Source of the DNA: Kondoa subrosea
Taxonomy: Eukaryota
Direction of reading: 5' to 3'
DNA length: 64,000 nt
Assembly: GCA_039545335.1 (NCBI GenBank)
Contig: BCIN01000001.1
Coordinates: 3,041,136-3,105,135, forward strand
Positions 13,546 through 61,816 of this stretch are shown here, piece after piece. A model generated the notes under the pieces. That model saw only the letters and a list, made by a program, of their open reading frames with translations, was not told the DNA's origin and ran no database searches. The stretch's first letter is position 1, and every line of letters starts with the position of its first letter. The position numbers and the translations under genes are program-made.

Positions 13546-13610
13546 ATATACTCGCTCTCTCTGTCGATCCTTAAATATAAGTTTGACTCCGTTTGTTTTT
13601 CTTGTCCATC

Positions 13611-19500: not shown

Positions 19501-20540
19501 GGGTGAATATTTGGTAGGACTGGAAGATATGTGTTTGCGAGTGCGGTTCAGCATACTAGGTGAATCATCCTCTATGGAGTCTGGACTTTCAGAAGGCTTT
19601 GGCGTATTCCCTAGGGAGATTGCGCGCCCAGGGCGAATTTCCGAGGGAGGTTTATATTCGTCTTCGGGCCGAACAGCGGTTGCAACAGCTAATATAGTAT
19701 GGAGAACCCTACTGAAAGGGTCAGGGAGACCTTCGCTGAGATCGTCGACGGTAAAGAGGTCGTCAGGGTGCAGAAATAGTTGCTTTTGCGCGCCATCAAG
19801 AAATCGAGCAATATTCTGTCTTCGTACTATGGTAGATTCCGAGTGCCTTATATTTGATAGAGAATTGGGAAAGAATCGGTTCAGAAGCCTAAGAAGGAGA
19901 AAACATCAGACATTCACATATCGTAAAATTTCAGAGACACTGACCAGCAGAGAAGGACCCCATCTCTCAGGCTTTTCCATAAAGCATACCCGTCAGGATC
20001 GTAAGTAGACCAAGCCAGCCAAGGCTGTTCCAGCTCTTCCTCTACATTTTCATCTACCAACGCATTCGCTCCCAGCTCATGGCTCAGAAATCTCTTGACT
20101 CTAGCGACCAATTCAGTGTAACGAATAGCAGCACTGTGATCTACCGGAGGAGCTTTTCTTTTGGGCGTGATGTTATGGGTCAAAGTGGAAGCGGATGTCA
20201 GAGATATAGAATCTGCCGGTAAAGAGCGAGTGTCCAGACTTGAGGGGAAGTAACTACTTGCAGAAGAAGCTAAGAAAGAGTGTTGCGGTTCGGGGTAGTC
20301 AGTGGGCCCATTTAATTTGGCTAAAGCTTGGTCTCGTTGTGATTCGATAGATCTGGCCAAACTTGCTGGAGAAGGCAATGGCGATACAGCAGCTGTTCCT
20401 TTTCCATTTAAGCTTCCCTCCTTCGAAGATGTCCGATGTAGATCACTCGTCGACATGGACTTCTGTGAATTGAGCCTCCGACCCCTTGACCCTTCATCGA
20501 CTTCAGCCGCTTTCGCTTTGCCCTTGAGGAAGAGATGCAT
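16533..20540 (-). CDS. STE-group Cdc15/Cdc7-like Ser/Thr kinase with N-terminal CH domain and C-terminal C1 domain
   Basis: IGRGQFG, VAVKRI, HCDLKCAN, GDFG and GTPNWMAPEVI. CH-like LRDGVLLC...NIARFL. C1-like HSFVKTSFSK..CKLC...CESCGLICHAKC. Start codon uncertain. Confidence 0.85.
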
Positions 20541-21117: not shown

Positions 21118-24100
21118 TTAGAGCGAAGTCACGAGGGAAAACTATAAATCGGTCAGCTAAGCATTCTAGACTGCCGACAGAAAACTAACCATGACCACTA
21201 CGCGGCGAGGCGAGGAAGCTGTCAGATCTAGAACCGATAGAAAATGCTTAGACTGCCCACCTTCTTGGCTTGAGGTAGCTATCCGAAGCAAGATCTTGCG
21301 GAATTGACGCACGGTTGCTGTCGGAAGATCGGATTCCAAGCGCTGGAAAGCTTCGACGTCCATAGCCCACAATACAGAATCTCTTTCTGCCGTCAATGTA
21401 GACGTCCGCGGCATGTCTGAAAGAAAGCTGAGTTCTCCCGCAACGCTGAGCCAAAATCAGGTCAGATTAGTTTGCACAAAAAGCGGGAAGAGCTTACCTA
21501 GCAGGAAGCATTGTCTCTACCAGAGAATGCTGCAAGTCATACATTTCTCGGACCAGCTTGAGTGCACCGACTTCAATGAGGTAGAAACGTGAGGCAGCAT
21601 CTCCATCTCGCCAGAGAACGGTGCCCTTTTCGACATGAAGCTTCGTAAAAAACGGAACGAGCTGGAAGAAAAACGATTGCGCATCGCTGACTTCATGAGC
21701 ATATGTCGAGAACGCTTGCATAAGAAGAGGAAGAGGTTGAGCGAGGTTGATGCGTCTTGGTGTTGAAGGTTTGCCTAGACCGATAGTGTCTTTTGCAGCT
21801 TCGAAGAGGTGCAACCGCCGCGGAGAATGACTGAAAGCTGAAGGTGTACCAGAATATAGCGAAGGAGAAGTGACGAGACTGTGGTTTGCGAGGGGCCCGA
21901 TGTGCGATTCTTCTATTCCCACAGTAGGCAGTGCGAGATCTTTGGAATAGAGAGACCTTAGTTGACAGTTTTCGCAATGCTAGGAAGTGTATCAATATCA
22001 TCGCAAAGCACGTACGAAGGGTCGGTCTTACCTCGAGAGCATCATTTAGCTTCTCGAACACTTCGACACGTAAAGTTTCCTCCCCAGCCCAAAGATTGAC
22101 TGCTCTGAGTGCCTTACCAACTGAGGAATCTGGCAAACAGCCGCAAAGTATGAGAAGGACGTTTTTGGCCTCGCATAGCCGCTGTATTCGTAGAAGAGCC
22201 TCTGCGGCGCTAAAGTCGACTCCTGTAACTATATTCAGCTTACGACTAACCGCAATAGAAGATGGCATACCGCTGACAAGCTTGAAGTCGAGTACGAGAA
22301 AGCGAACTGGTTTTTCTGCCCACATAGCAGCTTCAAGCAGCGACTTTATTGTAGTCTCGCATCTTGAAGCAGTTCCAAAGAAAATCTGCCCTTGAAGCTT
22401 GATGATCCGTATTTGGGAACCGACTTCCTTCAGGAAGTTGCTTTGTTGCTGTGTGAGGGGTCAGATTTGCCTGAATACATAATTGGGGCAGCTCACAGGA
22501 TGTCTTCGGACTGTAGACCTAGCAGTAGCGCCTGTTATGATGCGGCGCACAGATGCTCTTTGCGAAGATGTAACCACAAAAGAGATGCAAGCAACGACAA
22601 TACCAACTCCGATGCCGACGATGAAGTCCACAAAGGTCTGCAGCGGAATCAGATGGAATGTCATTGTCAGCCTCAAGAAAACGAACCATGACTAGGATGA
22701 TGATCCAAATTGTAATGTATTCAAAGCGCGAGACTCTTCCCCATGTGTCATAGCAAGCTTCTTTCAAGAGATCAAGACCAAGAAGGTAGATCAGAGCGCC
22801 TGATCAACCGTAAACAGATTATCATCGAAGCACAATTGCCACATACCAACAACCATAACTGTTGCATATTGTCAGTATAATGCCAAAACAAGTAGGTGCA
22901 GCTAACCCGGAAGAAGACCTATTACTTTGGGACCGACCATCATGACCGCTGCAGTTGCTCCTGCAAGCATAAAGCCAGAAAGACGACTCGTTCCTCCAAC
23001 TCTGCAAAGATATGAGCAGCTGGCATCAAGACCATTCTGGCACTGACCGATAGAAAAGGACCGAGTTGGTGTACACTATTACGAGATCAGTGTATACTAG
23101 ACCGAAGTGGGTGGTGTGCGCACCAAGATAATTGGGCACACTCCCAATGAGACCCGATATAAGATTGCTCAATCCGTGATTGACTAGTTCATTATCTGTT
23201 TTCAGGTTGTCTTCCGATATCGAGAGCGCTAAAGCAGGGACATTTAGAGGAACATGAAGCATAGCAAAGAAGACCAGCGCGAGTTGTGTAGGGATTGTTG
23301 CGACTAGAGCACCATAGTCGACCTGACGAAAGTCTAGACAACAGTCAGACGCGATTAAGATCACTAGCGGGCATGACTCACTGAAGAGACTCCAAAATTC
23401 GTAAAAGGGCGTCTGGATGTCACCCAGATCAAAAACCCAACCGGTAGAACGAAGTTGCGCCAGGGGCATGCGTAGAATAGCCATAGATATTATGTAGAAA
23501 ACAGCTGCCACAATGCAGACTACGGCAAAACGTTAGTAACACGATGACTGTTCGTTGCAAAGCTCCACTCACAGAAGCCAGGAATGATGAGTGGATGGGT
23601 ATAATATGCTGTTATCAGTCGAAGGAATATACAGAGGGCCAAAGGTATCGTCTAACAAAATCGTAAGCGATAAAGAAGGGAAGAGGCGTAGCATACCCAA
23701 AGTGGAAGGATATCGTTGCCGAAGAACATTTGAACAGTAGACCAGCTCAAGGCAGGTATCGACTCTTCGTCTAAACGAGCGGTGACTTGTAGGCTATAAC
23801 TCGGTCAGGTCCCTGCCAAATGGATTCAAAAATGGGCAGCTTACCCGGTAATCATCAGCTGTGAGATGCATACTCAGTATACCCTACGATCATCGTAGAC
23901 TAAGACTCACGAATGCTCCAATACCGCCTATACAGCCAACTAGAATATGTCGAGGGAAGAATTCGAGCAGTATCCCCATTCTGTAGGGTTTGGCTCGCTT
24001 AAAAGCATTCTTGAAATGCTAAAAGCCGCTGAACCTACTTCAGAGCACCAAGAAGGAAGAACACTAGGCCAGTAAGTATAGATGACATAGCAAAGGCGAC

Positions 24101-30786: not shown

Positions 30787-33700
30787 ATGGATATAAACAA
30801 GTGCTTGCCAACGCAGGTCACTTCTGTCGGTTTTGCTGCCTTGAGCTCTGCGGACATCAGGCGAATCAGTGTCAAGCAAATAGTCAATCCAGTACTCTTT
30901 GATAATCTCAATAGACCCAATGCAGGCGGTCTCTATGATCCCCATCTCGGTCCACAAGATCGTATGGATATGCAAGTTTTTTTCAATGCGAGCCTCGCAA
31001 AGGCTTCGGTCTGATGGATTATTGTGACAGCTGCCAAACATGCAAATTGACTTCTTTCGCCTGTCCTGGTCATTTCGGTCATATTGATCTACCACAACCT
31101 GTCTTTCATCCGCTTTTCATGACACATCTCTTCAACTTACTTCGAGGTACTTGCTTCTACTGTCATCATTTTCTTCTATCTCGCAAAAGAGTGAGCTCAT
31201 TTGTTTCTCTCTTGTTATGTCTTTTGCTCATCTAGACTGCTATAGGTCACCAAATATTGTGCCAAATTTGTACTTCTCGATCACGGTCTGATAGCGGAAG
31301 CAGCAACAGTCGATAGATTTGATGCTGCGCCATCAGCCAACAAAGGAAAGGAAAGAGAAATGCAGGAAGCTGCTTCAGAGCAAGAAGATGAAGCAGATCC
31401 AGGAGACGAAGACGAAACTCCAGAAGTCTACTCTTCTCGCTTGTTTCAATATGTCAACCTTATGATATCAAAATCGGAGAACAGCAATCGCGATTCGTAC
31501 AAGATTGGTGCTGCATATGACGTGCGGAAGAAGTTGATTACGGAGTTTCTCAAAGCCATCTCGAGCAAGAAAACCTGCCCGAACTGTCAAGCGTGAGCTT
31601 TTTCCGCTCTAGTTTACAGCCAATTATGCTCATATATATAAATACAGCATCGCACATCGAATGCGCAAAGATGGTTTTCAGCGAATCCTAGAAATTAGTC
31701 TGACCGCAACTCAGAAAGCAAAGAATGCGAATAAGAGCAAACCTACCTTGGAGCAAATCCGATCCAAAGTCAAGAAGATCAAACGCTATCATGCAGACAG
31801 CAAAGTGCCAGTCTATCAGCCGAACCAAGAGACAAAGGACGATAGTGAGAATGAGCTTTCGGATCATGAAATGGGATCGCCAGAACCATCGGACGAAGGA
31901 GAAGGGGACGATCTGATGGATCTAGATGAGAATGGACCAGTAGTACCTCAAAATGAAGATGACGAAGTCCAATCAGCGGAAACTAAAAAGGGAGTGAAAA
32001 CACCTGGCAAAGGTCAAACAGAACGAAATATCTTCCCTGGAGAATGTCAAGATCGTCTTACTGTTCTCTTCTCCAATGAAGCTCAAGTCGTTGATCTCAT
32101 CTTCTGTCCTCATGGTCCTTCTGCAACAACTCGTCTTATAAATCAGCCATCACCAGTACACGCTGATCCAGATATGTTCTTTATGGATGTAGTTGCTGTT
32201 CCACCATCCCGATTCCGTCCGGCAAGTATTATGGGTGATATGACATTCGAAAGTCCTCAAAACGAATTGCTGTCGAAAGTCTTAGGAGCTGTCATACGAA
32301 CGCGAGATCTGAATAATGCTCTACTGGAAGCTTCTCTCAAACCAGAAGAAGGTTCGGATCTGCTGAGCGAGCCTGTAAAAATCGACACCTCGAGAATGTA
32401 TGGCCAACTTTTGGCCTCGCTAGGCGAGATACAGCACTCCGTAAATAGTCTTCTAGATAGTACCAAGAATCAAACACCCATTCGTGGCGGAAAACTACCG
32501 CCTGCTGGTGTGAAGCAGATCTTGGAAAAGAAAGAGGGTCTTTTTAGGAAGAATATGATGGTTTGCGATGCGAGATTAATTGACTGGCTTGTCATTGATC
32601 ATGCTGTTATTTCTGACAGGGTAAACGTGTTGATTATGCTGCTCGTTCGGTCATTTCTCCAGACGTCAATATCGAGACCAACGAGATTGGAGTACCACCT
32701 GTCTTTGCCAAGAAATTGACCTATCCAGAACCTGTTATGGCTCATAACTTACTGCGGATGCAGAAGTTGGTTGAAAATGGCGCAAAAATCCACCCAGGTG
32801 CAGCGTACATCGAATACGAAGATGGACGGCTAGAGTCACTTGTCGGTACTTTCGGTCATGATTCGCTTCAGTGCTTACAGTATTCATAGGAACGACTGGA
32901 ACCAGAAGAAAGAGCCGCCAAAGCGCAACAGCTATTGGCACCAGATATACCTCGCGGTGTTGCATTAGATCGAATGGACGTTGGTCTACCAAGAACTCGC
33001 ACGTCTCAGACTGTCAAGAAGGTACATCGACATTTGGACGATGGCGACATTGTTATCCTGAATCGTCAACCAACGTTGCATAAACCCAGTATGATGTGTC
33101 ATCGAGTCAAGGTACTAAATGGCGAGAAGACTATTCGAATGCACTATGCCAATTGGTAAGCGATGCTCGCAGAGCTTTTCGTTTTAGCTCAGCTTTTCCC
33201 GTATAGCAATTCTTACAATGCCGATTTTGACGGAGATGGTATGGATAAGATCATACGCCTGAGCTGTACTGATCAATTGTGGCAGAAATGAACATGCATT
33301 TCCCTCAAACACCAATTGCTCAAGCTGAAGCGAGACTGATAGCCAACACCGATAACCAGTATCTCGTGCCTACTTCAGGTGATCCTTTGCGTGGTCTTAT
33401 TCAAGATCACGTCGTTGCTGGTGTATGGATGACGAATAAAGAGACCTTCTTCACTAGAGCAGAATATTGTCAATTGCTATACGGTGCACTTCGACCGGAA
33501 GACAACTATTCAGGGGAAGGCACCGTCAAGACTCTACCGCCTACCATCTTCAAACCAAAAGCTCTATGGACTGGCAAACAAATCGTGAGCTGGCTGTTGC
33601 AGATCAGGCGGAATTCGAGCTAACTCTTCATCCAGATCTCTACTATTCTACTCAATATTACACCCAGTGGAACAAATGGTCTCAATCTGCGCAGCAAGTC

Positions 33701-36700
33701 CAAAGTGCCGGCAAAGCGATGGGGTCCAAAGAACGAGCCAGAAGGAGAAGTACGATTCATGGATGGCGAGCTCATCAGCGGTATTCTTGATAAGTCGCAA
33801 TTCGGGGCTACTTCATTCGGTATGGTACATTCAGTCTATGAGCTCTATGGCGCAACAATTGCTGGCAAGCTCCTCGGTATTCTCAGTCGCCTGTTTTCCA
33901 AATACCTTCAACATCGCGCTTTCACCTGCGGTATGGACGATCTACATCTTACGGAAGAAGGTAATAAATGGCGTCAAGAGCTTATCGATCAAGCAAAGTC
34001 TCGCGGTCTTAAAGCAGCTCTAGGCTATGTCAACCTGGAAGATGCAGATCCGAACGACCCAGATACAGCTCAAAACCTCAAGATTAGGCTCGAAGAAGTG
34101 CTTCGTGATGACCTTAAATCGGCTGGCTTGGATCGAGCAATGATGGGCGAGACCAGTGGACTGACCTCGGGCATTATTGACAAGTGTCTACCCGATGGTC
34201 TTCTCAAGCCTTTCCCAGCCAATGATATGCAAACTATGACTGTATCAGGAGCCAAAGGTTCCAATGTCAATGTTTCGCAAATCTCCTGTTTGCTAGGTCA
34301 ACAAGCTTTGGAAGGTCGGCGTGTACCAACAATGGTCAGTGGGAAAACTCTCCCTTCCTTCAGAGCCTTCGAAACGGAACCAAGAGCCGGCGGATACGTC
34401 TCTCAACGCTTTTTGACTGGTATCCGGCCTCAAGAGTACTACTTCCACTGTATGGCAGGACGTGAAGGTCTGATCGACACAGCTGTCAAGACTAGTCGAT
34501 CTGGATACCTGCAGCGATGTCTCATCAAGCATCTCGAAGGTATCCGAGTGCACTACGATCATACTGTCCGCAACAGCGACGCTTCGGTCATCCAATTCCA
34601 CTATGGCGAAGATTCACTCGATGTTACAAAGCAGAAGCATCTTTACAAACTTGATGTGTGTGCTTATGTCACGCGATCTCTATCTACTGACTCTGTGAAT
34701 AGTTCGCGGTCGAAAACAGACAGGCCTTGATCCAGCGATACCAGCCCAGTCAAGTCGTGCCTCATGTAGACGACGAGGCGGCTGTCCAATACCAGACAGA
34801 AGTACTGAAGCAAATCGGCAAGCATGGCATGGGTTCCAAAGAAGTCCAGCCGCCTGTCTTGTCCCACTTAAACCCAAGCACACATCTCGGCAGTACTTCT
34901 GAAACTTATGCTATCGCCCTTGCGAATTACCAACATGACAATCCGGATCGGCTGCTCAAGACCAAGAAGAAGCATAGGAAACATTGGCCAGCTTACCAAA
35001 AAGATTCCAACTTTACCGAAAAACTCATGGATTTGGGCTTGTTCACCAGTCTGATGCAATTACGATACATGCGTAGTTTGGTAGATCCAGGAGAAGCTGT
35101 GGGACTACTAGCTTCACAAGGGTAAGTAGCTTGCTATAGCTTGGCGACGTTTTCTCATTGCTCTTTTCTAGTGTTGGCGAACCTTCCACTCAGATGACAC
35201 TCAACACGTTCCATTTGGCTGGTCATGGTGCTGCTAACGTCACACTCGGTATTCCTCGTCTTCGTGAAATCGTTTTGACAGCATCAGTCAATCCAAGCAC
35301 GCCTACCATGAAAATTCCATTTTCTGACCACGTAACTGAAGATCAGCAGCAGCAGTTCATACGTGACTATACTCGTCTGACCATCTCACAAGTGGTTGAT
35401 CATGTCACCGTGGCTGAAAAACTAACGTCGAAAACCGCCGAAACCAGCTATACTCGAAAGCGGGTCTACACTGTCAAGATGCACTTTTTCTCCAAAAAGG
35501 AGTATCAAGAAGAATACAGCACCACTCCTATGCAGATATTAAGGGGCATAGCTCGTACATTTATGCCCAAACTTCATGAGGAGATCAAAAAGGAGCAGAA
35601 GCTCAATGCCAAGCAAGCAAAGAGTCAGGCTGCAGATGTTGGTCAAAGTCATCACGCCCAAAATCCTGCCGCCGCTGCAGCGGTCGACGAAGATGTAGAC
35701 GTTGGAGCTGGTCGTCTTGACGAAGGAGCAGAAGATGGAGATGCTGATGATCAACGTCGAGCACTTCAAAAAGGCCAGCAGCACACCTATGATGACGATG
35801 AATCGGAAGCAGAAGATCCGGAAGAGAATTTGCCGCAAAACTACGAACTCAATTCTGACGACAGCGACGACGACGAAGAAGCAAGCGAGAAGGAGATTAC
35901 CCAACTGGAACAATCACGGATGGATGCTATGGCTGAGATCGAAGCCGAAGTTAACGAGAAGGCAAAATTGGTTTCTGAATTCACATTTGACAAGAAATCT
36001 GGAGCTTTCTGCACCTTCAAATTAGACGTAAGTCTAATCGAATGCACAGAATCGATCCTCTGATAGACTATTCTGCCGCAGTTCGATGGTACAGCAGCCA
36101 AGTTATTGCTCGTCGGCCTTGTTGAGCGGGCTTGCCGAGCATCTGTTATTCATCAAGTGCCCGGTATCACAAGATGTATCATTACTCCTCCTGACAAACT
36201 TGATCCAAAGGCGCGTTCTCTTCTTATTTGAGCGTCTTGCCTGACTGATCTATGATTTAGACATACTTCACTACCGAAGGGCAAAATCTCAAAGCAACTT
36301 GGCAATTCGGCTCCGACAAGCTAGAGCTCAATCAAATCTACTCAAACGATATCGCAGCCATTCTTCGGACGTACGGTGTGGAAGCAGCTCGCATGGCTCT
36401 GATTCGAGAAATTTCTGCTGTCTTTGGCGTTTACGGCATTGGTGTAGATCGAAGGCATCTGACCTTGATAGCAGACTATATGGTAAGTGCATCATTACTC
36501 GCTGTATGAAGAGATCTCTGACTGCTTCGCTAGACCGCCGACGGAGGTTACAAGCCTTTCAACAGATCAGGACTTGGCTCAAGCAATTCTCCTTTCCTCA
36601 AGGCCTCATACGAGATGACTTCAACCTTCATCACTGAAGCTGCCGTGTTTGGTGATTTCGACAACATGAACAACCCTTCAGCAAATATCGTTCTGGGCAA

Positions 36701-36749
36701 GATTCCTCTTTCTGGTACTGGTGTATTCGATGTCAGAATCAAGACTTGA
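30787..36749 (+). CDS. RPA190: RNA polymerase I largest subunit
   Basis: [84 protein letters not shown] and [26 protein letters not shown] (Pol I type). Confidence 0.97.
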
Positions 36750-39520: not shown

Positions 39521-39831
39521 TACGTGCTGCTCTTATCTATTTCACTGGTGAGTGGGTTTGAAGAGATCGACTCTCATTCGTCTAATGACCGCTTCTTTCC
39601 TCAGTACATATATCACACTGTCTCATTTGAACGGATGTAAAATAGTAATGTACCATCATAAGCGGATCACATAATGCATGCTTCACTTTTATCTTTACTT
39701 CCACACGCTTCATCATTTCGCTTGACAAACCACAACCAATACCTTTTGCTCGAAACATACTGTGACTTGCTTGGATTATACCAAACTTATTTGGATACAT
39801 CTATCTTTGAAGCAATAGAACAGCAGCAGCA

Positions 39832-42046
39832 ATGTGTACATTTCTCCTCACTCTGCATAATAATTTATTGCAATTTGGCTTATTGCATCGTGAGAACAGC
39901 TACAATAGTCGAGCGGATTAAAGCGATCGGTAGGCCTCATTATCTGAATGCATGTACTGTAAAAGCGGGAAGTCTGCGGCCTGTCCATGACGGTTTTCGA
40001 GAATTGGTGCAAATGTCGAATATCGAGAACTGGTCATGAATAGGCTGCAGACTGGCTTGCTGTATCTCATTGTATTCTGTTCGATAAATAGAGGATGAGA
40101 TGGTCAGTCAGACGGCTTAGCATTTGAGAATTCAGCTCATGCATAGGCTCTCGATATGACAGGCCAAGACTCAGAAAGTAAGTATTCCAACTATTACCAT
40201 AGCTCAATATTTGACAGTATGCGTAATGTACAGAGTTCGTCATACCTAATCAGACATTGCTCTGTGCTTAAATTGCAAATCATCAGACAAGGCTACAAGG
40301 TAGATCATCTATTTCGATAATACCTTCGGGGTTTGCTCGATATTGATGGTGCTACAGTTTCCATTTAGGTCAACTGAAAGCCAAACTAGCTAAACTCAAA
40401 AGAGAACTCATCACACCTTCATCTTCTTCTGGACCTGCTGGTGCAGGTTTCGATGTTGCTCGAACGGGTATCGCTTCTGTTGGATTTATAGGCTGTACGG
40501 TGGACACTCTAGATCGTTAAGTATTGAATGTCTCATCAAGCAACTTTTAGTTCCCTCGGTGGGGAAAAGTTCACTGATGAGTAAACTGACGGGGACGGAG
40601 TCAATTGCTGCTGCATGTGCGTCAAATGTTGGGATTCAGCTAGTCTTCTAGCTGACGCGGACTCTTGACACACAGATGAATTCACGACATTGACGACTGT
40701 CCCTGGTACTTTGGAAGTCAATGGCGCAAAAATTCAGAGTGAGCGAATCGAATTCGATGTGTACTGGAGAACAGCAGTTGATCAAGCCTCGATAGTCCTC
40801 GATTTGCCTGGTATTATTGAAGGTGCCAAAGATGGTAAAGGTCGAGGTCGCCAAGTCATTGCAGTCGCCCGATCAACGAACCTGATCTTTATCGTCCTGG
40901 ACGTGCTCAAACCGTTGAAAGATAAAACAGTCATCGAAACTGAATTAGAAGGTTTCGGTATTCGATTGAACAAAGAACCGCCAAATATCTTGATCAAGAA
41001 GAAGGATCGTGGTGGAATAGCAATCAGCAATACTGTTCCGCTTACGAAGCTAGAAACGGAGGAAATCAAAGCGGTGCTTGCTGAATACAAGTTGTCGAAT
41101 TGCGATATTTCTTTTAGATGTGACGCTACGCTGGATGAATTGATTGATGTGTGCGAGGGGAACCGTGTTTATGTACGATATTCTGCTTATACTCGGCTCT
41201 TCCGCTGACATCTATGACAGATCCCTGCGGGCATGTTTAAACCTCTTGAACGAGCTTTTGACTAAGGGAACTGACTCCTTTGTTTGCAGTGTATGTACTG
41301 AACAAGATTGATGCGATCTCGCACGAAGAACTAGATCTGCTCTATCGTGTGTCGAAAACCTCTTCATTCGCAAAACCCTTGTTTGCTCAACTTTCATGAA
41401 TTCTGACTACCACAGGTATTCCAGATTCGGTACCGATCAGTGTGAAGCTATGGCTAAGTATGCTCAAGCGTCACTTATATCAACTATGACTGATGTTCTG
41501 CTCCAGATATCGATGAATTGCTTGAAGTCATGTGGGAAAAATTAAATCTGGTTCGAGTATATACGAAACCAAGAGGAAAACTGCCGGACTATACTGCGCC
41601 AGTCGTACTGAAGAAGAACAAGGCATCGGTTGAAGTAAGTCAAACCTCGTTTTGTGTTTCAAGCCGCTGACACTTGAACAGGATTTCTGTAATGCAATTC
41701 ACAAGTACGTCACTACCCTTCTGCAGCGTATGGAAGGATGTTTGACGTTGAAACACAGGGATATTGTGAACCAATTCAAGGTAGCCATCGTCTGGGGGTC
41801 TTCGGCGAAGGTAGTGCTTCAATTTGCTTGCAAGGAATTGGATCTGAACATCCGTCACAGCACGCTCGTGGCCAGAAAGTGGGACTAGAGCATGTTTTAC
41901 AAGCAAGTTTTTGTTATAATACCTATTTGGCAATGCAGTCTAACATGTTCTGCTTTCATTGCAGGATGAGGATGTTATAACCAGTATGTTTCTGCTTCTT
42001 TCAGGCTCGAATCAGCTCACATGTTCTGGCAGTCACTAAAAAGTGA
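39832..42046 (+). CDS. RBG1: Developmentally regulated GTP-binding protein (DRG1/Rbg1, OBG family)
   Basis: [74 protein letters not shown] and a C-terminal TGS domain. Many microexons. Confidence 0.95.
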
Positions 42047-42359
42047 ACGTTGCTATTCCTGAGGAAGAATACAACGGATGCATTTGGACCAATTGTAATA
42101 CAGTGTATATGGGGATGCATACAGCATCTTCTTTCCCTCGTCCCTACACTCTTCCGGTGTGACCGGTCTGCCTGAGTTCGGCAAAAGTCATTTTCTCTAT
42201 AGCTATTCTTTGAGAGCCTTGTCTTCAGCTGCTCGTCGCTAGGTGTGCAGCGAGCTTCATCTGAGGATCCGCAAGCTGATTTGGGTGAAAGTCAAGACTT
42301 GTAAATTTTCACTTGTCCTTCTCTCATAACCACCCTACACCTAAAAACTACTCTTCATC

Positions 42360-45300
42360 ATGGTGAAGTGAGTGCATACGCTGCATGTGTCGGCACACAG
42401 CTAACAATATTCGCTCTACAGTTTCACAGTAGGCAAGTCGATATTATGCACAAGCTTGGGCCAGAATAGCAAGCTAATACAAACTTGTTTGATGATCAGA
42501 CCAGATGCGCGGCCTTATGGACCACGGTATGCGCTGCTATATGCAAGTCTCGCGGGCAGTAGACTGATCAAAGTGGCAATTGTCTACAGCATCTAAGTAA
42601 GTGTGCCTCTACGTGTATGAGATGCCTTATTGATGAGATGTACAGCATTCGTAACATTTCCGTTATCGCTCACGGTCAGCTCCAGCGTGCTGCAATCATG
42701 CGACCGAGATGTACTGAAATTTGCAAATTTCCATAGTCGATCACGGAAAGTCTACTCTCACCGATTCATTGGTGCAAAAGGCCGGTATCATCGCTTCATC
42801 CAAGGCCGGAGACATGCGATACACTGACACAAGAGATGATGAGAAGGAAAGAGGTATCACAATCAAGTCGACCGCTATCTCTATGTACTTCGAGATGGAA
42901 AAGGAAGACCTTGAAGCCATTGCACAGAGGACTGACGGTTCGTTGGAATTGCTACCGATGTCTCGGATCATCCTCAATGTCGTCTTCGAACAGGAAACGA
43001 GTTCTTGATCAACTTGATCGATTCACCTGGTCACGTCGATTTCTCATCTGAAGTCACTGCTGCTCTTCGTGTCACCGATGGTGCCCTTGTTGTCGTCGAT
43101 TGCGTTGAGTACGTTTGGGTCTTTCTTCCACCAGTATTGAGCTCATCGGCACTTCAGCGGTGTTTGCGTACAAACCGAAACCGTCTTGCGACAAGCTCTT
43201 ACCGAGCGAATTAAGCCTGTTGTCATCATCAACAAGGTCGACCGTGCTCTTCTCGAACTCCAAGTTACCAAAGAAGACCTTTACCAATCTTTCTGCCGAA
43301 CAATCGAATCCGTCAATGTCATTATCTCTACCTACAACGACAAAGCTCTCGGTGATCTTCAAGTCTACCCTGAAAAGGGAACAGTAGCTTTCGGATCCGG
43401 TCTTCACGGTTGGGCTTTCTCTCTCCGAAACTTCGCCACCCGTTACGCAAAGAAGTTCGGTATTGACAAGGCAAAGATGATGGACCGACTTTGGGGAGAT
43501 AACTTCTTCAACCCAAAGACCAAGAAGTGGACCAAGAAGAACACTGACGATGACGGAAAGCCATTAGACCGAGCCTTCAAGTCAGTTTCTTTCCGTCTTA
43601 TTCACGCGAGACCATTTGCTGAGATCCCGTTCAAGCATGTTCGTTCTTGACCCTATCTTCAAAATCTTTGAAGCATGCATGAACCACAAAACTGCATCGC
43701 TCATGGTATGTTTCTGACTTTCTTAAATATCAGTCCTTGTTTGCTAATTTTGTGCTTTACCAATCTACAGCCTATGTTGGAAAAGCTTGAGATCACTCTA
43801 AAATCTGACGAGAAGGATCTAGAAGGCAAGGCTTTGCTCAAGATCATCATGAAGAAGTTCTTGCCAGCTGGTGATTCTCTTCTTGAGATGATGTATGTCT
43901 GGCTTTCTGTCTTGTCGCTCATGCCTCTGACGCCGTGTGAAGCGTCATCAACCTTCCTTCTCCTGAAACTGCCCAGAAATACCGTGTAGAGACCCTTTAT
44001 GAAGGTCCTATGGATGATGAATCTGCTATTGCCATCCGTGATTGCGACCCTAAGGGTGTAAGTCCTTGTTTCTTTGATGTCCGATTACAAGCTCATCAGT
44101 TTGTCCTAGCCTCTCATGTTGTACGTCTCAAAGATGGTACCCACCTCCGATAAGGGACGTTTCTACGCTTTCGGTCGTGTTTTCTCTGGAACAGTCAAGG
44201 CCGGACCAAAGATCAGAATTCAAGGACCAAACTACCAGCCCGGAAGCAAGACCGACTCCAACATCAAATCAGTTCAGCGAACCGTTCTGATGATGGGTCG
44301 AACTGTCGAACCAATCGAAGATTGCCCAGCTGGTAACATTATCGGTTTAGTCGGTATCGATCAATTCTTGCTCAAGTCCGGAACCCTCACTACTGCTGAG
44401 AACGCTCACAACATGAAGGTTATGAAGTTCTCTGTCTCACCTGTCGTGCAAGTCGCTGTCGAAGTCCAGAACGCTAACGATCTACCAAAACTTGTCGAAG
44501 GTCTTAAGCGTCTGTCTAAGTCTGATCCGTGTGTAATGACATGGATCAACGAAACCGGTGAACACATTGTTGCGTACGTACTGCTTTGGTCTCTTCCCCT
44601 TCTTCTGCTCATCCAAGACTTGGTCACACAGCGGTGCCGGTGAATTGCATTTGGAAATCTGCTTGAAGGATCTTGAAGAAGACCATGCTGGTGTTCCTCT
44701 CAAGAAATCAGCTCCAGTTGTCGGTTACAGAGAAACCATTCAAGCCAAATCCTCCATGACTGCTCTTTCCAAGTCTCAGAACAAGCACAACAGAATCTGG
44801 ATGGAGTCTGAACCTTTAGTCGAAGAGCTTTCAAAGGACATTGAAAGCGGAAAGGTCAACCCCAGAGATGATGTGAAGATTCGTGGCAGATATTTGGCTG
44901 ATGAGTACGGTTGGGATATCACTGATGCAAGAAAGATTTGGTGCTTCGTAAGTATTCATCTCTTGTACTTATGCAAATGCTCCTGCTGATCAATTTGCGT
45001 TCGACAGGGTCCTGAAGGAACCGGTCCTAACTTGCTTGTCGACACCACCAAGGGTGTGCAATACCTCAACGAAATCAAAGATTCATGTGTGGCTGCTTTC
45101 CAATGGGCGACAAAAGAAGGTGTATGCTGCGAAGAGAACATGCGAGGAACAAGATTCAACGGTAAGTAGCGACCTCCTCTCACCTTGGTTCTTGCTCACG
45201 TGCCTCATCTATAGTTATGGATGTCACGCTACACACCGATGCTATCCACAGAGGTGGTGGACAAATTATCCCGTTTGTCATTTCATCGTAGCATTTTTTG

Positions 45301-45999
45301 CCGCACTGACTTCGAGCAGAACAACTCGTCGCGTTGTCTACGCATCTGCTCTTCTCTCTCAGCCTGGTCTTCAGGAACCTGTTTTCATGGTCGAAACCCA
45401 ATGTCCAGAAACCGCTCTTGGAGGTGTAAGTGCAAAGTTCATGTTGTACTTATCTGTACTAAGTCTCCTCCAGATCTATTCCGTGTTGAACAGAAAGCGA
45501 GGAATGGTCTTCTCAGAAGAGCAAAGACCAGGGTATGCTTTTCTCAACATAATACTGACTTTTCAGCTGATTTTGCTCTCCAGAACACCTATGTACACCG
45601 TCAAGGCATACCTACCAGTCTCTGAATCATTCGGTTTCAACGGTGAACTGCGTCAAGCGACTGGTGGACAGGCTTTCCCTCAAATGGTCTTCGAGTAAGT
45701 TTCAGACATATGAAAGGTCGACTTTGATGCTCAAATTCACCCAGTCACTGGGCTATCATGAACGGAAACCCTCTCGAGAAGGGAAGCAAGCTCGAAACTT
45801 TGGTCACCGATATTAGAAAGAGGAAAGGAGTACGTCAGACTCGTCTTAGTCTATTCGCGTTGCTCATTATGCCTTCATTCTCTCCAGCTCAAGCCTGAGA
45901 TACCTGGTCTCGATCAAGTACGTTCTCACGCATTTAAGCAAAATTGCAAATTGCTAATCGACACTTGGTTGATTTCTTTAGTACTACGACAAGCTCTAA
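42360..45999 (+). CDS. EFT1: Translation elongation factor 2
   Basis: [47 protein letters not shown], diphthamide loop DAIHRGGGQ and C-terminal YYDKL*. Confidence 0.98.
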
Positions 46000-57011: not shown

Positions 57012-57076
57012 CTTCGCTTTCAGTTTAAAGTATTCGTTCCAGGTTGACCTCAAACCACACCCAGACTTTAGAAGGG

Positions 57077-59024
57077 ATGCAATACCCCACGTCTGCTAAA
57101 TATGCAGGTCGTAATTACACCGATTATATCCTCACAGCACCAGATAACCCAGATAACGCTTTAAATCAATGGTCACACAACTTAATGAAGTTACAACCTG
57201 CTGGATCAAACAAGACTGTAGATCCTAGACTGTTTACTACACCTGTTACTTTAAACAGAAGGGACGAGTACACTCTCAGAGGAACAGAACAACGTGTAGC
57301 TATGAAAGTGGATCCGAAATACAACGCTGTCACTATTGCTTCTGATAAATCTAATACTACTAAAGAAGAAATGGATGAATCTCTTGTTGCTCCTGCTCCT
57401 GGTAAAAAACCTGGTGCTCCTGTTGTAGAAAAGAAAAGAAATCCTTGGTTACAAAAGAAGACTCAAAGAGTTTACCAGACTGAAGCTTCTGCTATAGCTA
57501 GACAAATTGCAAGGGAAGAAAGGAACCCTTGGTTGTTGGAAGATGGTACAGAAGAAACTGCTAAAGGTCATCAACGTTGGATTGGAAAGATTGAAGGTGG
57601 TTCTGGTAGGTTAGGTGGTTTAGATGATGGTGCAACAGGTGGAACTTCTGCTACAAAAGGAGGCAACTATATGCTCTTTGTCATGGACGATAGGAAACAG
57701 AATGATATGTCCATGCAAGTCTTACCTGTTAATCGATGGTACAAATTCATTCCTAAACCTTTGGTCAAGAACCTTGATGCGGAAGAAGCAGAAAGGGAGT
57801 TTACTAAACGCGCTAAAGCTAAACAAGAAGATCGATGGGGTGTAAGGAACAAGAAATTAGATGAAGCTAGATCAAGAGGCGAAAGTGTCGGACCTTCCAA
57901 TGGTAGAGTCAAGAGCGAAGTCAAAGTTGAAGAAGAGCTTGCTCCTCAGCGTACATTCTCTGCTATTCATGGCGAAAGAACTACCAACCGGTCCAATGCT
58001 GCTTCTCGCTTGCAATCAGCTCGAGGCGGAGGTGATGAAGATCAATACGATGAGTTTGATTTCGAAGACGAGTTTCAAGACGATGAAGAAGGTGCTGGAC
58101 AGTATGGTGATGATGCTATGGATGCAGATGAGGCCAAAGAGCTGGAAGAGCGTATCAAGAAGAATCAAAGAGGTGCCGTGCCCTTTGGTGAAGTTGAGCC
58201 AGTAGATGAAGATGTGGATCCCGATGACGAACGTCAACTTGATCCAACTGGAAAACAAGCCAAGAAATTGCTGAAGAAACTCGAGAAGCGCTTAGAATAC
58301 GAATCAGCATCCGATGATGACGATCGACGTAATCCTTATGCGAGCGAGGTAAGCTACAAGCAGGTTATGCGATTTTTAATCTGACTATATGAGCAGGCCG
58401 AGTCTGATGACACAGAAGCTTCTTCACCAGCTAAACCTGATGGAAATGTTTCTGCCCTCAAAGCATCTACGTCTAAACTGTCTTCCGTTCCGCCAGGCAT
58501 GTCATCGAAAGCACGCATCACCAATACTTCACGACCTTCTTCCCTACCTCCCTCTCGTTCTGGCTCACCTGCTCCTACTTCCGCTATGGTTGCCAAAAGA
58601 GCCACCTCGCCTCGTGCGTCAGGATCAGGCTCAAACAGCAAACCCAATTCCAGAGCTGCTTCACCTACTGCTACGGGAAGTAAACGAAAAGCAGATGCCG
58701 GATCAGAAGAAGAAGGCGGAGGAACGAGCAAAAAAGCCAAAGTTGCAGTGGACGACAGCGTTAAGAAGACTCTTACTGGTCAAGTATTGGTCCAATTCGT
58801 CCAAAGTGCGAAGACTCCGGGGGACGCTAGCGTAACTCAGGTAGGCCCATTAACGAATCGAGTTGACTGACGGACAAGCTTACATTCGTGTCCAGTTATT
58901 GAAGTATATTAAGACTAAACTGAAAGTTAACCCTCGTGATGCTGGCGTCATGCCACACATTCAGGCTTTGATCAGAGAGAACTTGGTGTTGGTAGATGGG
59001 ATTTTAACCTTGAAAGGAGAGTAA
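57077..59024 (+). CDS. TFG1: Transcription initiation factor TFIIF large subunit (RAP74/Tfg1)
   Basis: FTTPVTLNRRD, KKTQRV, REERNPWLLED, WIGKIEG, YMLFV, PVNRWYKF, an acidic EFDFEDEFQDDEE region and a C-terminal winged-helix-like segment. Confidence 0.85.
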
Positions 59025-59850: not shown

Positions 59851-61816
59851 TCATTCGCCATAACTTGAAAATAGTAAACTAAGGTCGAATGAATCAGCTA
59901 TCGCAAAGTTATATACAGTCGCACGTACCTTGCCGCAAGCTCAGCATTACCTCCAGCCGAATCTAGCAGCTTTATCGCCTCCGCTCTCGGCACGCCCAAT
60001 GCGACCAAACTTTGTATCGACGCTTCAGCATGACCTGAATTTGTCGGCGCCTGACTGGGTGCTGGAGCGGAGGGAAAAGGAGTAGGAGCTAAACTGTTGC
60101 CCGATCCGCTGAAGGGTGTGAAAGAGGTAGAAGAAGGGGCGCCTTTAGCTGCTGTATTTGCTGCTGCCGCAGCTCCAAGTGCACTCGTACTGCTGGAAGC
60201 TGCTGCTGACCCTTCTGGTAACTTGATGTTGCCTTTGCTGTACACCAGTTACAATTGGCTGATGTCACAAAGACAACGATTGACTTACTCGTCGACCTCG
60301 ACTTCTTCATCACCAAAATTCGGCAGCTCGTGTTCTGGTAGAAAGTGTACTCTTCTTCCTTGGATGACTAGTTCATCTTTCTCTAGATCGATGATAGCTT
60401 GATGACGCTTTAGCATATCCAGGCCAAACAGGAGGTCGACGCCTTTACCCTGATAATACTTGAGAGAGGGCGGTCCTGACGCGTACGCGAAGCTTACCTC
60501 CATGATAGTGAAGGCGCACGCGAGATAGAGATCTGATCCCAGCTTGATTTGCGCGCTATGAACTCGACCCAGAATCTTTGCCGTTCCAACACCTCGTGCG
60601 ATACCAGCAAAGCGCTTATCCAATAGTCTCATAAGACTGTATGTCACAAATGGGTTCAATGAGATTGTCTCATTGAAGCTGCCGTGACATACCCGCATGC
60701 TTCTGCACACTCGGGACTCATTATTGTAGCTTGAGCTCCAGAGTCGACAAACTGGTAACAATCGTCAAGAGAGAGCCAGCGAGAACTGTGCAGAGCTTAC
60801 TGCTTTGATCTTGTATCCGTTTACTTCAGTCGGAATATACAGCATGGTTACACGACCGAAGGATTCAGGTGAGTATTCCTGTGAGAACGCTATTTTAGCA
60901 ATTCCTCAAGGAAGAGATACTTGCCAACCCACCATAGCATGCTCCATGTTCTGCAGACAGATCAGGTCAGATTCATGCCCTGTAAGTTATGAAAGCACGA
61001 ACTTCTAGTATCGCTTCTTGCCGAATCGCCTCTTCTATCTGTTTCTGGGCCTCAACATCAAAAGGATCCGCATTCCTGTTTCAGCATTAGCATATATCAG
61101 CGATATAGACGGGCAGGACTGACAGGGTAGCGATGCTTCTCTGACGTTGTTGCGCTGCGTTGTTCTGCATCTGCTGTAATTGAGGTAGCCTTTGATTATG
61201 CCTTGAGACTAGGTCACACTTGGTTCCTGCGCATGGTACCTACAATTGACGGAACCGCTGCGGGTTGTTTTCTGCCGCAGTCGCAAGTTCAGGGAAAGCC
61301 TGTAACGGTCCGAAAATCCATTAGCCGATAAGACAGCTTTGATCCCCGGACACCTTACCTGCTTGAGCCTAGCCATAAGATCGCTATTGCCAAGTAACTG
61401 CAACCGCATCTGTTCTGCTTCATCATTTGAAGGCAGCGGTCCAGATCCAGCAGAAGAAGAAGATGGACCACTAGACGAGGATGCTGAGGGACCATCAGAG
61501 CGTAATAGAATCATATCATCGTTCTGAATCCCAAAATCCTAGAAAGCATCATATAAGCAATCCATCGAGTCTTGAGCTGCAGAGCTGACTTTCAGCGTCC
61601 TGGTAGCACCCTTGAGTTCATTGCCATTGTGTAGCAACGTCTGTGCGGAAGGTGGGATCCCTGTTTCTGCTTCCTGTTGCTATGAAATCAGTCTTACTAG
61701 TTTTGGCCTAGCTCTCCATAGCTGACCAGCAGAGCGTTCACGTCCTGCAGTTGCATCTCTTCGCCTACATCGATCTGCGAGCTATCGCCAGCTTCAGACA
61801 CAATCAGTAAATGCAT
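59851..61816 (-). CDS. DDI1: DNA-damage-inducible aspartic protease / ubiquitin shuttle Ddi1
   Basis: N-terminal [32 protein letters not shown], catalytic [19 protein letters not shown] and a C-terminal UBA. Confidence 0.96.

What the first reader, a model, noticed from the sequence alone, without database searches (positions are those of the whole stretch)
40178..40299. Probable 1-nucleotide exon (A at 40234) in DRG1/RBG1
Seen: exon 40163-40177 ends ...CAG AAA|gtaagt and the next clear exon (40287-40299) starts AC AAG GCT ACA AG, one base short of the conserved DRG motif TQKNKAT. Mid-gap the sequence reads tgtacag|A|gttcgt, splitting the 109-nt gap into two typical-size introns (56 and 52 nt) and supplying the missing A (AAA A|AC = K N). 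GTTCGT donors occur elsewhere in this window. Inference: a single-base exon among other 4-15 nt coding exons, which standard gene predictors would probably mis-model.
Basis: partly seen in the sequence, partly recalled or inferred. Interest (0 to 1): 0.85.

Follow-up and report, generated by a model that had tools for sequence, protein, structure and literature searches.

The report
Probable one-base exon in DRG1
A fungal housekeeping GTPase gene (DRG1/RBG1) only reads in frame if a single A lying between two ordinary short introns is spliced in as a one-base exon, a rare but already documented gene structure that gene predictors get wrong.

Summary
Exon 40163-40177 ends CAGAAA|GTAAGT, exon 40287-40299 starts ACAAGG, and the 109-nt gap is one base short of the invariant TQKNKAT. 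Its only internal AG-N-GT is acag|A(40234)|GTTCGT.

Evidence for a real 1-nt exon:
- With the A, the CDS is 1104 nt, the same length as a related species' spliced mRNA (355 of 367 codons encode the same residue).
- 48 of 49 homology-supported introns in the window are 47-69 nt. The gap is an outlier at 109 nt but splits into typical 56 and 52 nt.
- The internal acceptor, branch site and donor score mid-range among real introns.
- Equally good splits arise in about 0.1% of decoys (1% at the loosest cut-off).

Rivals:
- The alternative donor at 40182 (TQKVNKAT) is weak and overlaps the strongest donor seen. None of 78 homologous loci has an insertion there.
- About 11 kb of other conserved coding sequence needs no frameshift, so an assembly error looks unlikely.

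No RNA or DNA reads of this organism and no orthologous genomic sequence could be examined, so this stays a strong inference (about 0.85).

One-base exons are published for Arabidopsis APC11, Fusarium CYP621A and 13 Coprinopsis genes. This is a new member of a known kind.

The parts
39832..42046 (+). DRG1/RBG1 coding region (ATG to TGA): 19 coding exons and 18 introns if the 1-nt exon is counted
   Evidence: Protein-guided spliced alignment. The joined CDS is 1104 nt with a single terminal stop. The relative's protein matches yeast Rbg1 best among solved structures (566 bits, against 374 for Rbg2).
40163..40177 (+). 15-nt exon encoding AKTQK, ending in phase 0
40178..40233 (+). Upstream intron (56 nt), GTAAGT...ACAG
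   Evidence: Donor score 10.38, the highest of all compared (rank 49/49). Acceptor 6.66 (rank 35/49).
40201..40207 (+). Best branch-site candidate of the upstream intron, AGCTCAA. The branch A is at 40206, 27 nt before the 3' end. The alternative is ATTTGAC at 40209-40215 (A at 40214, 19 nt).
   Evidence: PWM score 7.11 (rank 32/49); the alternative scores 2.59. The 27-nt distance is one above the reference range of 7-26.
40234..40234 (+). Proposed single-nucleotide exon A, the first base of the Asn codon (A|AC) of TQKNKAT
   Evidence: Only AG-N-G[TC] in the gap. It restores the frame and gives a 367-codon ORF.
40235..40286 (+). Downstream intron (52 nt), GTTCGT...ATCAG
   Evidence: Donor score 6.31 (rank 21/49). 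The same hexamer serves as donor of eEF2 intron 42938. Acceptor 1.67 (rank 3/49, weak, but every reading needs this acceptor).
40265..40271 (+). Branch-site candidate of the downstream intron, TGCTTAA (branch A at 40270, 16 nt before the 3' end, 35 nt after the donor)
   Evidence: PWM score 4.05 (rank 7/49).
40287..40299 (+). 13-nt exon AC AAG GCT ACA AG, encoding (N)KAT(S)
40182..40187 (+). Rival donor GTATTC, which would give TQKVNKAT
   Evidence: Donor score 1.75 (rank 2/49). It lies 4 nt inside the GTAAGT donor. The default aligner chose it.

Best explanation
The 109-nt gap is two ordinary, independently recognised short introns (40178-40233 and 40235-40286) that abut a single exonic A at 40234. 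Removing both gives ...ACT CAG AAA AAC AAG GCT..., that is, TQKNKAT.

How it probably works (inferred, not shown): in a fungus whose introns are nearly all 47-69 nt, splice sites are paired across the intron (intron definition). No exon-borne information is then needed, and each spliceosome treats the neighbouring intron as its flanking exon. The U1 binding site of the downstream donor (AGA|GTTCGT) contains the AG of the upstream acceptor. The two introns therefore cannot be engaged at that point at the same moment and must come out one after the other. Either order leaves a normal site for the second reaction: the downstream donor scores 6.31 before and 6.54 after the upstream intron is removed.

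Skipping the A puts a stop after 27 codons. Retaining either intron stops translation after 46 or 53 codons. Only the doubly spliced mRNA makes the protein.
For: Shown from the sequence:
- The anatomy is as described.
- One base is missing relative to a related mRNA, and only at this junction.
- With A40234 the CDS is 1104 nt, equal to the relative's CDS. Of 367 codons, 193 are identical, 162 differ synonymously and 12 non-synonymously, so the gene is under purifying selection and otherwise intact.
- The guided aligner returns the 1-nt exon with three guides once insertions and frameshifts cost more than an intron.

Context in the same window:
- 48 of 49 homology-supported introns are 47-69 nt; the exception is 162 nt.
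- Five more introns in ADE5,7 are 51-64 nt.
- The gap's halves are 56 and 52 nt.
- Ranks among real introns for the internal signals: acceptor 35/49, branch site 32/49, donor 21/49.
- Tiny exons are common here: 11, 15, 13 and 10 nt in DRG1, and 11 and 7 nt in eEF2.

Chance: a split this good appears in 0.1% of decoys at the 10th-percentile cut-off, about 1% at the loosest cut-off, and none at the observed scores.

Motif constraint:
- The 7-residue motif is contiguous, with no inserted residue, in 78 of 80 related loci; the other 2 did not reach it.
- It is present in 13 of 14 fetched homologues; the 14th is truncated at the N-terminus.
- The Lys after the Asn is the JMJD7 hydroxylation site in human DRG1 (passages of PMC11400632).

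Precedent: 1-nt exons are reported in Arabidopsis, in Fusarium, also inside a roughly double-size intron, and in 13 genes of Coprinopsis.
Against: - No transcript of this organism was seen. The only mRNA is from a related species with 82% nucleotide identity, whose gene structure is unknown.
- No orthologous genomic sequence could be compared, so conservation of AG-A-GT is untested.
- The assembled bases were not checked against reads.
- The outer acceptor (rank 3/49) and the downstream branch site (rank 7/49) are weak. The best upstream branch site lies 27 nt from the acceptor, just outside the 7-26 range of the reference set.
- Tandem intron-like pairs one base apart are not enriched in the window: 3 observed on both strands against about 2.6 expected. 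The other two are false positives inside real exons. The pattern alone proves nothing; the argument rests on its coincidence with the one place where the frame needs an A.
- The reference set is 49 introns from three genes, and the thresholds were chosen by me.
Confidence: 0.85

Rival explanations
1. Assembly or sequencing error. One A is missing from the run at the end of exon 40163-40177 or at the start of exon 40287-40299. The 109 nt are then a single intron, and the internal AG-A-GT is a coincidence.
For: The deficit sits next to a short A run (CAGAAA|), the kind of place where indel errors occur. A longer intron does exist in the same gene, 162 nt at 39930-40091. I could not check reads.
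Against: No frameshift is needed in about 11 kb of other conserved coding sequence in the window: DRG1 1104 nt, eEF2 842 codons, RPA190 about 5.3 kb, ADE5,7 about 2.3 kb. The aligner did call frameshifts in RPA190: 1 with guide P0249 and 3 with P0243. Those at 30961 and 31296 fall where the other guide places introns; those at 31621 and 31639 fall inside an intron I identified by eye (31593-31647). This reading also requires two further coincidences: an intron size seen in 1 of 49 references, and an internal split found in 0.1-1% of decoys.
Confidence: 0.07
2. The alternative donor at 40182 (GTAA|GTATTC) is the one used. This gives a 105-nt intron and a protein with Val inserted (TQKVNKAT).
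For: It is in frame and gives a 368-residue ORF. A homology-guided aligner prefers it under ordinary penalties. It may exist as a minor isoform.
Against: Its donor score is 1.75 (rank 2/49), and it lies inside the footprint of GTAAGT at 40178, the best donor in the set. None of 78 related loci, and none of the 13 fetched homologues with an N-terminus, has an inserted residue in the motif. The closest relative's mRNA encodes TQKNKAT. A 105-nt intron would again be a size outlier, and the internal AG-A-GT a coincidence.
Confidence: 0.04
3. The frame really is broken. Either this is a pseudogene or defective allele with a 1-nt deletion, or the frame is recovered after splicing by -1 ribosomal or transcriptional slippage on the A run (CAG AAA ACA read as K then AAC).
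For: Removing the 109 nt as one intron leaves CAGAAAACAAGG, on which a -1 shift after AAA would also read N-K-A-T (read from the sequence).
Against: The rest of the gene is intact and under strong purifying selection: 12 non-synonymous against 162 synonymous codon differences. Four A's is a short run for slippage, and there is no X XXY YYZ heptamer; that motif is recalled from general knowledge and was not tested. Local RNA structure is not exceptional (z = -1.19). The internal AG-A-GT would again be a coincidence.
Confidence: 0.02

Closest known systems
Single-nucleotide exon of Arabidopsis thaliana APC11 (Guo and Liu 2015, PMC4674806; part 1 of 3 of the text read)
   Same: A lone A flanked by AG and GT inside what was annotated as one intron. 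It is required for the reading frame and is spliced constitutively. The database annotation had used a nearby alternative site instead.
   Different: A plant gene, with flanking introns of very unequal size inside a 422-nt interval. It was proven by cDNA sequencing, genomic resequencing and mutation of the base. Here both introns are typical short fungal introns and nothing has been tested in RNA.
One-nucleotide exon of Fusarium CYP621A P450 genes (Nelson and Syed 2026, PMC12940212; parts 1 and 2 of 3 read)
   Same: A fungal nuclear gene. The missing base lies inside a conserved motif. The host 'intron' is about twice the median length (139 against 56 nt there; 109 against a median of 54 here). 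Automatic gene models are wrong at the site.
   Different: An ascomycete. The exon is a G (AG-G-GT) and supplies the middle base of a codon. It is conserved in 20 orthologues and confirmed by 18 SRA reads. Here the exon is an A, in a housekeeping GTPase of a basidiomycete, without orthologue or read support.
Thirteen 1-nt exons in the long-read annotation of Coprinopsis cinerea (PMC12230235; passages read)
   Same: Basidiomycota. Ultra-short internal exons occur at appreciable frequency (1 nt: 13 exons; 2 nt: 57; 3 nt: 27), and omitting them breaks gene models.
   Different: The genes are not named in the text I saw, and the three readable supplementary tables hold nothing on them. Whether DRG1 is among them is unknown.
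Recursive splice sites (ratchet points) of Drosophila long introns (PMC8605326; search-listing abstract only)
   Same: A splice acceptor and a splice donor sit side by side, and the intervening RNA is removed in two successive reactions.
   Different: Ratchet points leave nothing behind (AG|GT, a zero-length exon) and serve very long introns. Here one coding base is kept and both segments are about 55 nt.
Spliceosomal twin introns (stwintrons) of filamentous fungi
   Same: Two fungal introns in direct contact that must be removed consecutively.
   Different: As I recall the definition, the inner intron interrupts a splice signal of the outer one, and the whole is removed without residue. Here neither donor, branch site nor acceptor is interrupted, and one base must remain.

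Membership tests
Single-nucleotide spliceosomal exon | The flanking exons are out of phase by exactly one base relative to a conserved protein or cDNA | tested here: met
   One unmatched mRNA base, at this junction only. The frame is restored by one base, giving a 1104-nt CDS equal in length to the relative's.
Single-nucleotide spliceosomal exon | An internal AG-N-GT carries the required base | tested here: met
   acag|A|gttcgt at 40230-40240 is the only such site in the gap.
Single-nucleotide spliceosomal exon | Both resulting introns have competent signals and plausible sizes | tested here: met
   56 and 52 nt, against 47-69 nt for 48 of 49 references. Ranks: donors 49/49 and 21/49, acceptors 35/49 and 3/49, branch sites 32/49 and 7/49.
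Single-nucleotide spliceosomal exon | mRNA of the same organism contains the extra base | not testable with these tools
Only a related species' mRNA (L001) was seen, and it encodes TQKNKAT.
Single-nucleotide spliceosomal exon | The genomic sequence is verified, so an assembly error is excluded | tested here: inconclusive
   Indirect only: about 11 kb of other conserved CDS in the window needs no frameshift. No reads were examined.
Single-nucleotide spliceosomal exon | The AG-N-GT is conserved in orthologous genes | not testable with these tools
   Of the 80 loci fetched, only L001 (97%) is close, and it is a spliced transcript. The next are at 81% or less. No whole genome is held for the window.
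DRG1/Rbg1 GTPase | Domain order: N-terminal helix-turn-helix with TQKNKAT, G domain (MMR_HSR1), MMR_HSR1_Xtn insertion, C-terminal TGS | tested here: met
   Pfam on the relative's protein P0362 finds PF01926, PF16897 and PF02824. The window's 126-aa exon matches PF01926 and PF16897. The window's spliced protein differs from P0362 at 12 of 367 codons. The motif is complete only if the 1-nt exon is used.
DRG1/Rbg1 GTPase | Closer to Rbg1/DRG1 than to Rbg2/DRG2 | tested here: met
   Yeast Rbg1 (4a9a_A) scores 566.6 bits over the full length, against 374.4 bits for Rbg2 (7nrc_So). Named database hits are rbg1 or DRG1.
Recursive splice site (zero-length exon) | Acceptor AG directly abuts donor GT, and nothing is retained | tested here: not met
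   One base separates AG and GT, and the reading frame requires it.
Stwintron | An inner intron interrupts a splice signal of an outer intron, and the whole is removed (definition recalled) | tested here: not met
   Both donors, both acceptors and the candidate branch sites are uninterrupted, and a base must remain.

The most novel reading that the evidence does not exclude
The A at 40234 is a constitutive one-base exon in an essential, universally conserved translation-associated GTPase. It would have arisen when a full-size intron was gained one base away from an existing one, inside the invariant TQKNKAT motif. Because the downstream donor's U1 site contains the upstream acceptor's AG, the two introns would have to be removed in an obligatory sequence, with each spliceosome using the other intron as its 'exon'. 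That would make this a natural minimal case showing that intron-defined splicing needs no exon at all. It may be shared by a whole lineage related to the rust fungi, where it would be silently mis-annotated.
Probability: 0.35. Interest if true: 0.55.

Novelty: new member of a known kind. Interest (0 to 1): 0.42.

Why it matters
If real, this is one of very few one-base exons known. As far as my searches show (no paper pairs such an exon with DRG1 or RBG1), it is the first reported in a core housekeeping gene of this fungal lineage.

In practice, automatic annotation would give a wrong protein: either a Val inserted next to the conserved, hydroxylatable Lys, or a truncated model. The signature found here could be used to screen intron-rich fungal genomes for more cases: an intron of about twice the modal size, a central AG-N-GT, and flanking exons one base out of phase.

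Mechanistically it offers a compact substrate (137 nt, two roughly 55-nt introns) for asking how the order of removal of abutting introns is set.

Tried and rejected
None was listed, which is not the same as none existing. That used the cap, so no DNA runs could be sought and no reads laid.
- Whole genome of the window: not held.
- Earlier findings of this scan: four look-ups gave nothing relevant. One unrelated mitochondrial frameshift note appeared.
- Orthologous genomic DNA: the one metagenome scan returned 80 loci. The only close one is a spliced transcript, and the others have the motif uninterrupted. They say nothing about intron conservation in close relatives.
- Mobile or duplicated intron: blastn-short of the gap against the window found only 10-14-nt chance matches. 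There is no sign of an introner-like repeat.
- RNA family in or near the gene: Rfam at E <= 1 found nothing in 39700-42200.
- Local RNA structure: MFE -24.7 kcal/mol, z = -1.19, with 24 of 200 shuffles folding as well, so not exceptional. The fold does pair 40228-40236 with 40259-40267.
- Window-wide scan for abutting intron-like pairs. At 10th-percentile thresholds the candidate itself is missed, because its outer acceptor is weak, and only 39 of 49 reference introns are recovered. At thresholds that admit it (40 of 49 recovered), there are 3 pairs one base apart on both strands against about 1.3 per strand in random sequence. The other two (11607-11721 +, 60381-60519 -) are false, lying over real exons of an SDR-like and a DDI1-like gene as read by eye.
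- Coprinopsis supplements: the three readable tables hold no list of the 1-nt-exon genes. The PDFs could not be read.
- Non-canonical single-intron solutions (GT..CA or TA..AG giving TQKDKAT): rejected by inspection. They have no canonical dinucleotides and would change the invariant Asn.
Full report
WHAT IS THERE

The window is eukaryotic, with 43-49% G+C. The gene at 39832-42046 (+) encodes a DRG1/Rbg1 GTPase.
- Its longest exon (40795-41172, P0001) is 97% identical to a transcript-derived protein from a metagenome.
- That exon is 85-87% identical to DRG1 of rust fungi such as Melampsora, Phakopsora and Austropuccinia.
- RPA190 and eEF2 in the same window find Mixia and other Pucciniomycotina among their best named hits.
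- The source is therefore a basidiomycete near the Pucciniomycotina. I did not try to name it further.
- A fully spliced mRNA contig of a related species (L001) translates to a 367-residue protein (P0362).
- P0362 matches yeast Rbg1 over its whole length (566.6 bits, against 374.4 for Rbg2).
- P0362 has the MMR_HSR1, MMR_HSR1_Xtn and TGS domains.

THE OBSERVATION

The sequence is exactly as described:
- exon 40163-40177 (GCCAAGACTCAGAAA), then GTAAGT;
- acag-A-gttcgt, with the A at 40234;
- cag at 40284-40286, then ACAAGGCTACAAG (40287-40299).

A nucleotide-level spliced alignment of L001 to the window put one mRNA base without a partner at this junction and nowhere else in the 5' half. Its only other irregularity was four unmatched genomic bases at 41293-41298. 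That came from my allowing only GT donors next to a GC-AG intron, and the protein-guided run cleared it.

GENE MODEL

I wrote a protein-to-genome aligner that allows introns in all phases and exons down to 1 nt.
- Guided by P0362, it gives 16 introns. Intron 1 (39836-39899), supported by the 5'-UTR match, adds one more, and the disputed gap adds one or two.
- There are no frameshifts or internal stops.
- With default penalties it chose the donor at 40182 and printed TQKvNKAT.
- When insertions, deletions and frameshifts cost more than an intron, it returned exon 40234-40234. This held with all three guides: P0362, Melampsora P0007 and Meredithblackwellia P0014.
- With the A, the CDS is 1104 nt, the same length as the relative's.
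- Of 367 aligned codons, 193 are identical, 162 differ synonymously and 12 non-synonymously; nucleotide identity is 82%. The gene is under strong purifying selection and is not decaying.
- Without the A, translation stops after 27 codons. With either half retained it stops after 46 or 53 codons.

REFERENCE INTRONS

To judge the splice signals I modelled two more conserved genes.
- eEF2 (42360-45996): 20 introns and 842 codons, with no frameshift using the two full-length guides. The third guide, P0124, is itself frameshifted at its C-terminus.
- RPA190 (30787-36746): 13 introns.
- In RPA190 the aligner called one frameshift with guide P0249 and three with P0243, all in the poorly conserved N-terminal third.
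- Those at 30961 and 31296 fall where the other guide places introns. Those at 31621 and 31639 fall inside an intron I identified by eye at 31593-31647.
- ADE5,7 (13605-16229), guided by three distant representatives, needs no frameshift and adds five consistent introns of 51-64 nt. These five were not used in the matrices.

In all, about 11 kb of conserved coding sequence reads through without an indel.

The 49 reference introns (16 DRG1, 20 eEF2, 13 RPA190) show the following:
- 48 are 47-69 nt; one is 162 nt.
- 5 have GC donors.
- One eEF2 intron starts GTTCGT.

SCORES

These are leave-one-out matrices and ranks among the 49 references.

| Signal | Site | Score | Rank |
|---|---|---|---|
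| Upstream donor | GTAAGT, 40178 | 10.38 | 49/49 |
| Upstream acceptor | acag, ends 40233 | 6.66 | 35/49 |
| Upstream branch site | AGCTCAA | 7.11 | 32/49 |
| Downstream donor | GTTCGT, 40235 | 6.31 | 21/49 |
| Downstream branch site | TGCTTAA | 4.05 | 7/49 |
| Outer acceptor | ends 40286 | 1.67 | 3/49 |
| Alternative donor | GTATTC, 40182 | 1.75 | 2/49 |

- The upstream branch site lies 27 nt from the acceptor, one beyond the reference range. A weaker ATTTGAC sits at 19 nt.
- The outer acceptor is weak, but every reading needs it.
- The three internal signals that only the two-intron reading requires are therefore ordinary.
- The alternative donor is poor and sits inside the best donor.

CHANCE

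Keeping the real ends of the gap and replacing its interior gave the following.

| Criterion | Markov decoys (n = 40000) | Window decoys (n = 18264) |
|---|---|---|
| AG-A-G[TC], both halves 45-70 nt | 2.2% | 5.0% |
| All three internal signals at or above the weakest real intron | 0.7% | 1.1% |
| At or above the 10th percentile | 0.105% | 0.13% |
| At or above the observed scores | 0 | 0 |

A window-wide scan is a caution.
- Abutting intron-like pairs one base apart are no commoner than in random sequence: 3 observed against about 2.6 expected.
- The other two are false positives lying over real exons.
- The pattern by itself is not evidence. What counts is that it lies in the one gap, of about 54 introns examined, where the frame lacks exactly an A, and that this gap is also the right size for two introns.

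THE MOTIF

- The seven-residue motif is contiguous, without insertion, in 78 of 80 related loci. Of these, 68 read KNK[AGS]T and 10 carry variants such as TQRNKAT. Two loci did not reach it.
- Many of these loci are transcripts, so they speak to the protein, not to intron positions.
- 13 of 14 fetched homologues show TQKNKAT; the 14th lacks the N-terminus.
- In human DRG1 the Lys after the Asn (Lys22, in ARTQKNKAT) is the JMJD7 hydroxylation site, in the helix-turn-helix region. An inserted Val one residue upstream is unlikely to be neutral. That last point is my inference.

MECHANISM (INFERRED)

With introns this short and uniform, splice sites are paired across introns (intron definition, established knowledge for fungi). 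Each of the two introns then has all it needs. The single A is simply what lies between one 3' splice site and the next 5' splice site.

The U1 site of the downstream donor spans the upstream AG, so removal should be sequential. The donor context hardly changes after the upstream intron goes (6.31 to 6.54), so either order is possible. Transcription order favours upstream first.

Nothing suggests a special structure or element:
- no Rfam hit;
- fold z = -1.19;
- no repeat.

WHAT IS KNOWN

- Full-text searches found the Arabidopsis APC11 case, proven by cDNA and mutagenesis.
- They also found the 2026 Fusarium CYP621A report, with the same 'double-size intron' signature, 20 orthologues and 18 reads.
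- A long-read annotation of Coprinopsis cinerea counts 13 one-base exons, 57 of 2 nt and 27 of 3 nt.
- No paper found pairs such an exon with DRG1 or RBG1.
- A search combining microexon terms with Pucciniomycotina and rust terms gave nothing on this: of the 20 papers listed from 1,027 hits, only one held a microexon term at all, and that paper is on Rhizoctonia.
- The list of Coprinopsis genes was not in the supplements I could read.

VERDICT

- 1-nt exon: about 0.85.
- Missing base in the assembly: 0.07.
- Alternative donor as the main form: 0.04.
- Broken frame or recoding: 0.02.

It is a new member of a known kind. Interest is moderate: a neat and rare structure in a core gene, with practical value for annotation, but with published precedent in fungi and no RNA support yet.

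Noticed in passing
window 41231, 41903, 42433, 30972, 36211 (+): Five of 49 homology-supported introns (10%) begin with GC instead of GT (GCATGT, GCAAGT three times, GCGCGT). From memory, about 1% is usual in most eukaryotes, so this looks high. Predictors that allow only GT-AG would break DRG1, eEF2 and RPA190.
   Followed up: partly
window 39930-40091 (+): DRG1 intron 2 is 162 nt, three times the otherwise tight 47-69 nt range. The flanking exons are in phase, so no hidden exon is needed. It has no Rfam match and no repeat elsewhere in the window. Its excess length is unexplained.
   Followed up: partly
window 42360-42736 (+): The eEF2 gene immediately downstream of DRG1 also opens with a string of tiny coding exons (8, 11, 27, 7 and 29 nt), separated by 49-67-nt introns. 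Micro-exons clustered at the 5' end seem to be a habit of this genome.
   Followed up: partly
window 40228-40236 and 40259-40267 (+): The predicted fold pairs GUACAGAGU (upstream acceptor, the A, and the GU of the downstream donor) with GCUCUGUGC inside the downstream intron: 9 bp, two of them G-U. The fold of the whole segment is not better than shuffles (z = -1.19), so this may be chance.
   Followed up: partly
window 11607-11721 (+) and 60381-60519 (-): Two other places look like abutting introns one base apart by the matrices. By eye they are not. At 11655-11683 there is a real 29-nt exon of an SDR-like gene (…KYN|IRVCCYAPG…). At about 60449 downward a DDI1-like exon starts GGTAAAGGC…. They are useful as examples of false positives.
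   Followed up: yes
proteins P0002 and P0124 (from searches, not the window): The closest database proteins to DRG1 and eEF2 come from transcript-like contigs. Their C-terminal ends read through a retained intron (P0002, after …SVKLWL) or a frameshift (P0124). In P0002 the read-through starts at the position of window intron 41458-41506, which suggests the relative has that intron.
   Followed up: no
window, whole: Other genes recognised by Pfam on long open frames: MAGE-domain protein (4378-4917 +), forkhead (7391-8536 -), ADE5,7 GARS-AIRS (13.6-16.2 kb +), CH-domain protein (18910-19905 -), STAS-domain transporter (21693-22460 -), RPA190 (30.8-36.7 kb +), TFIIF-alpha (57029-58384 +).
   Followed up: no
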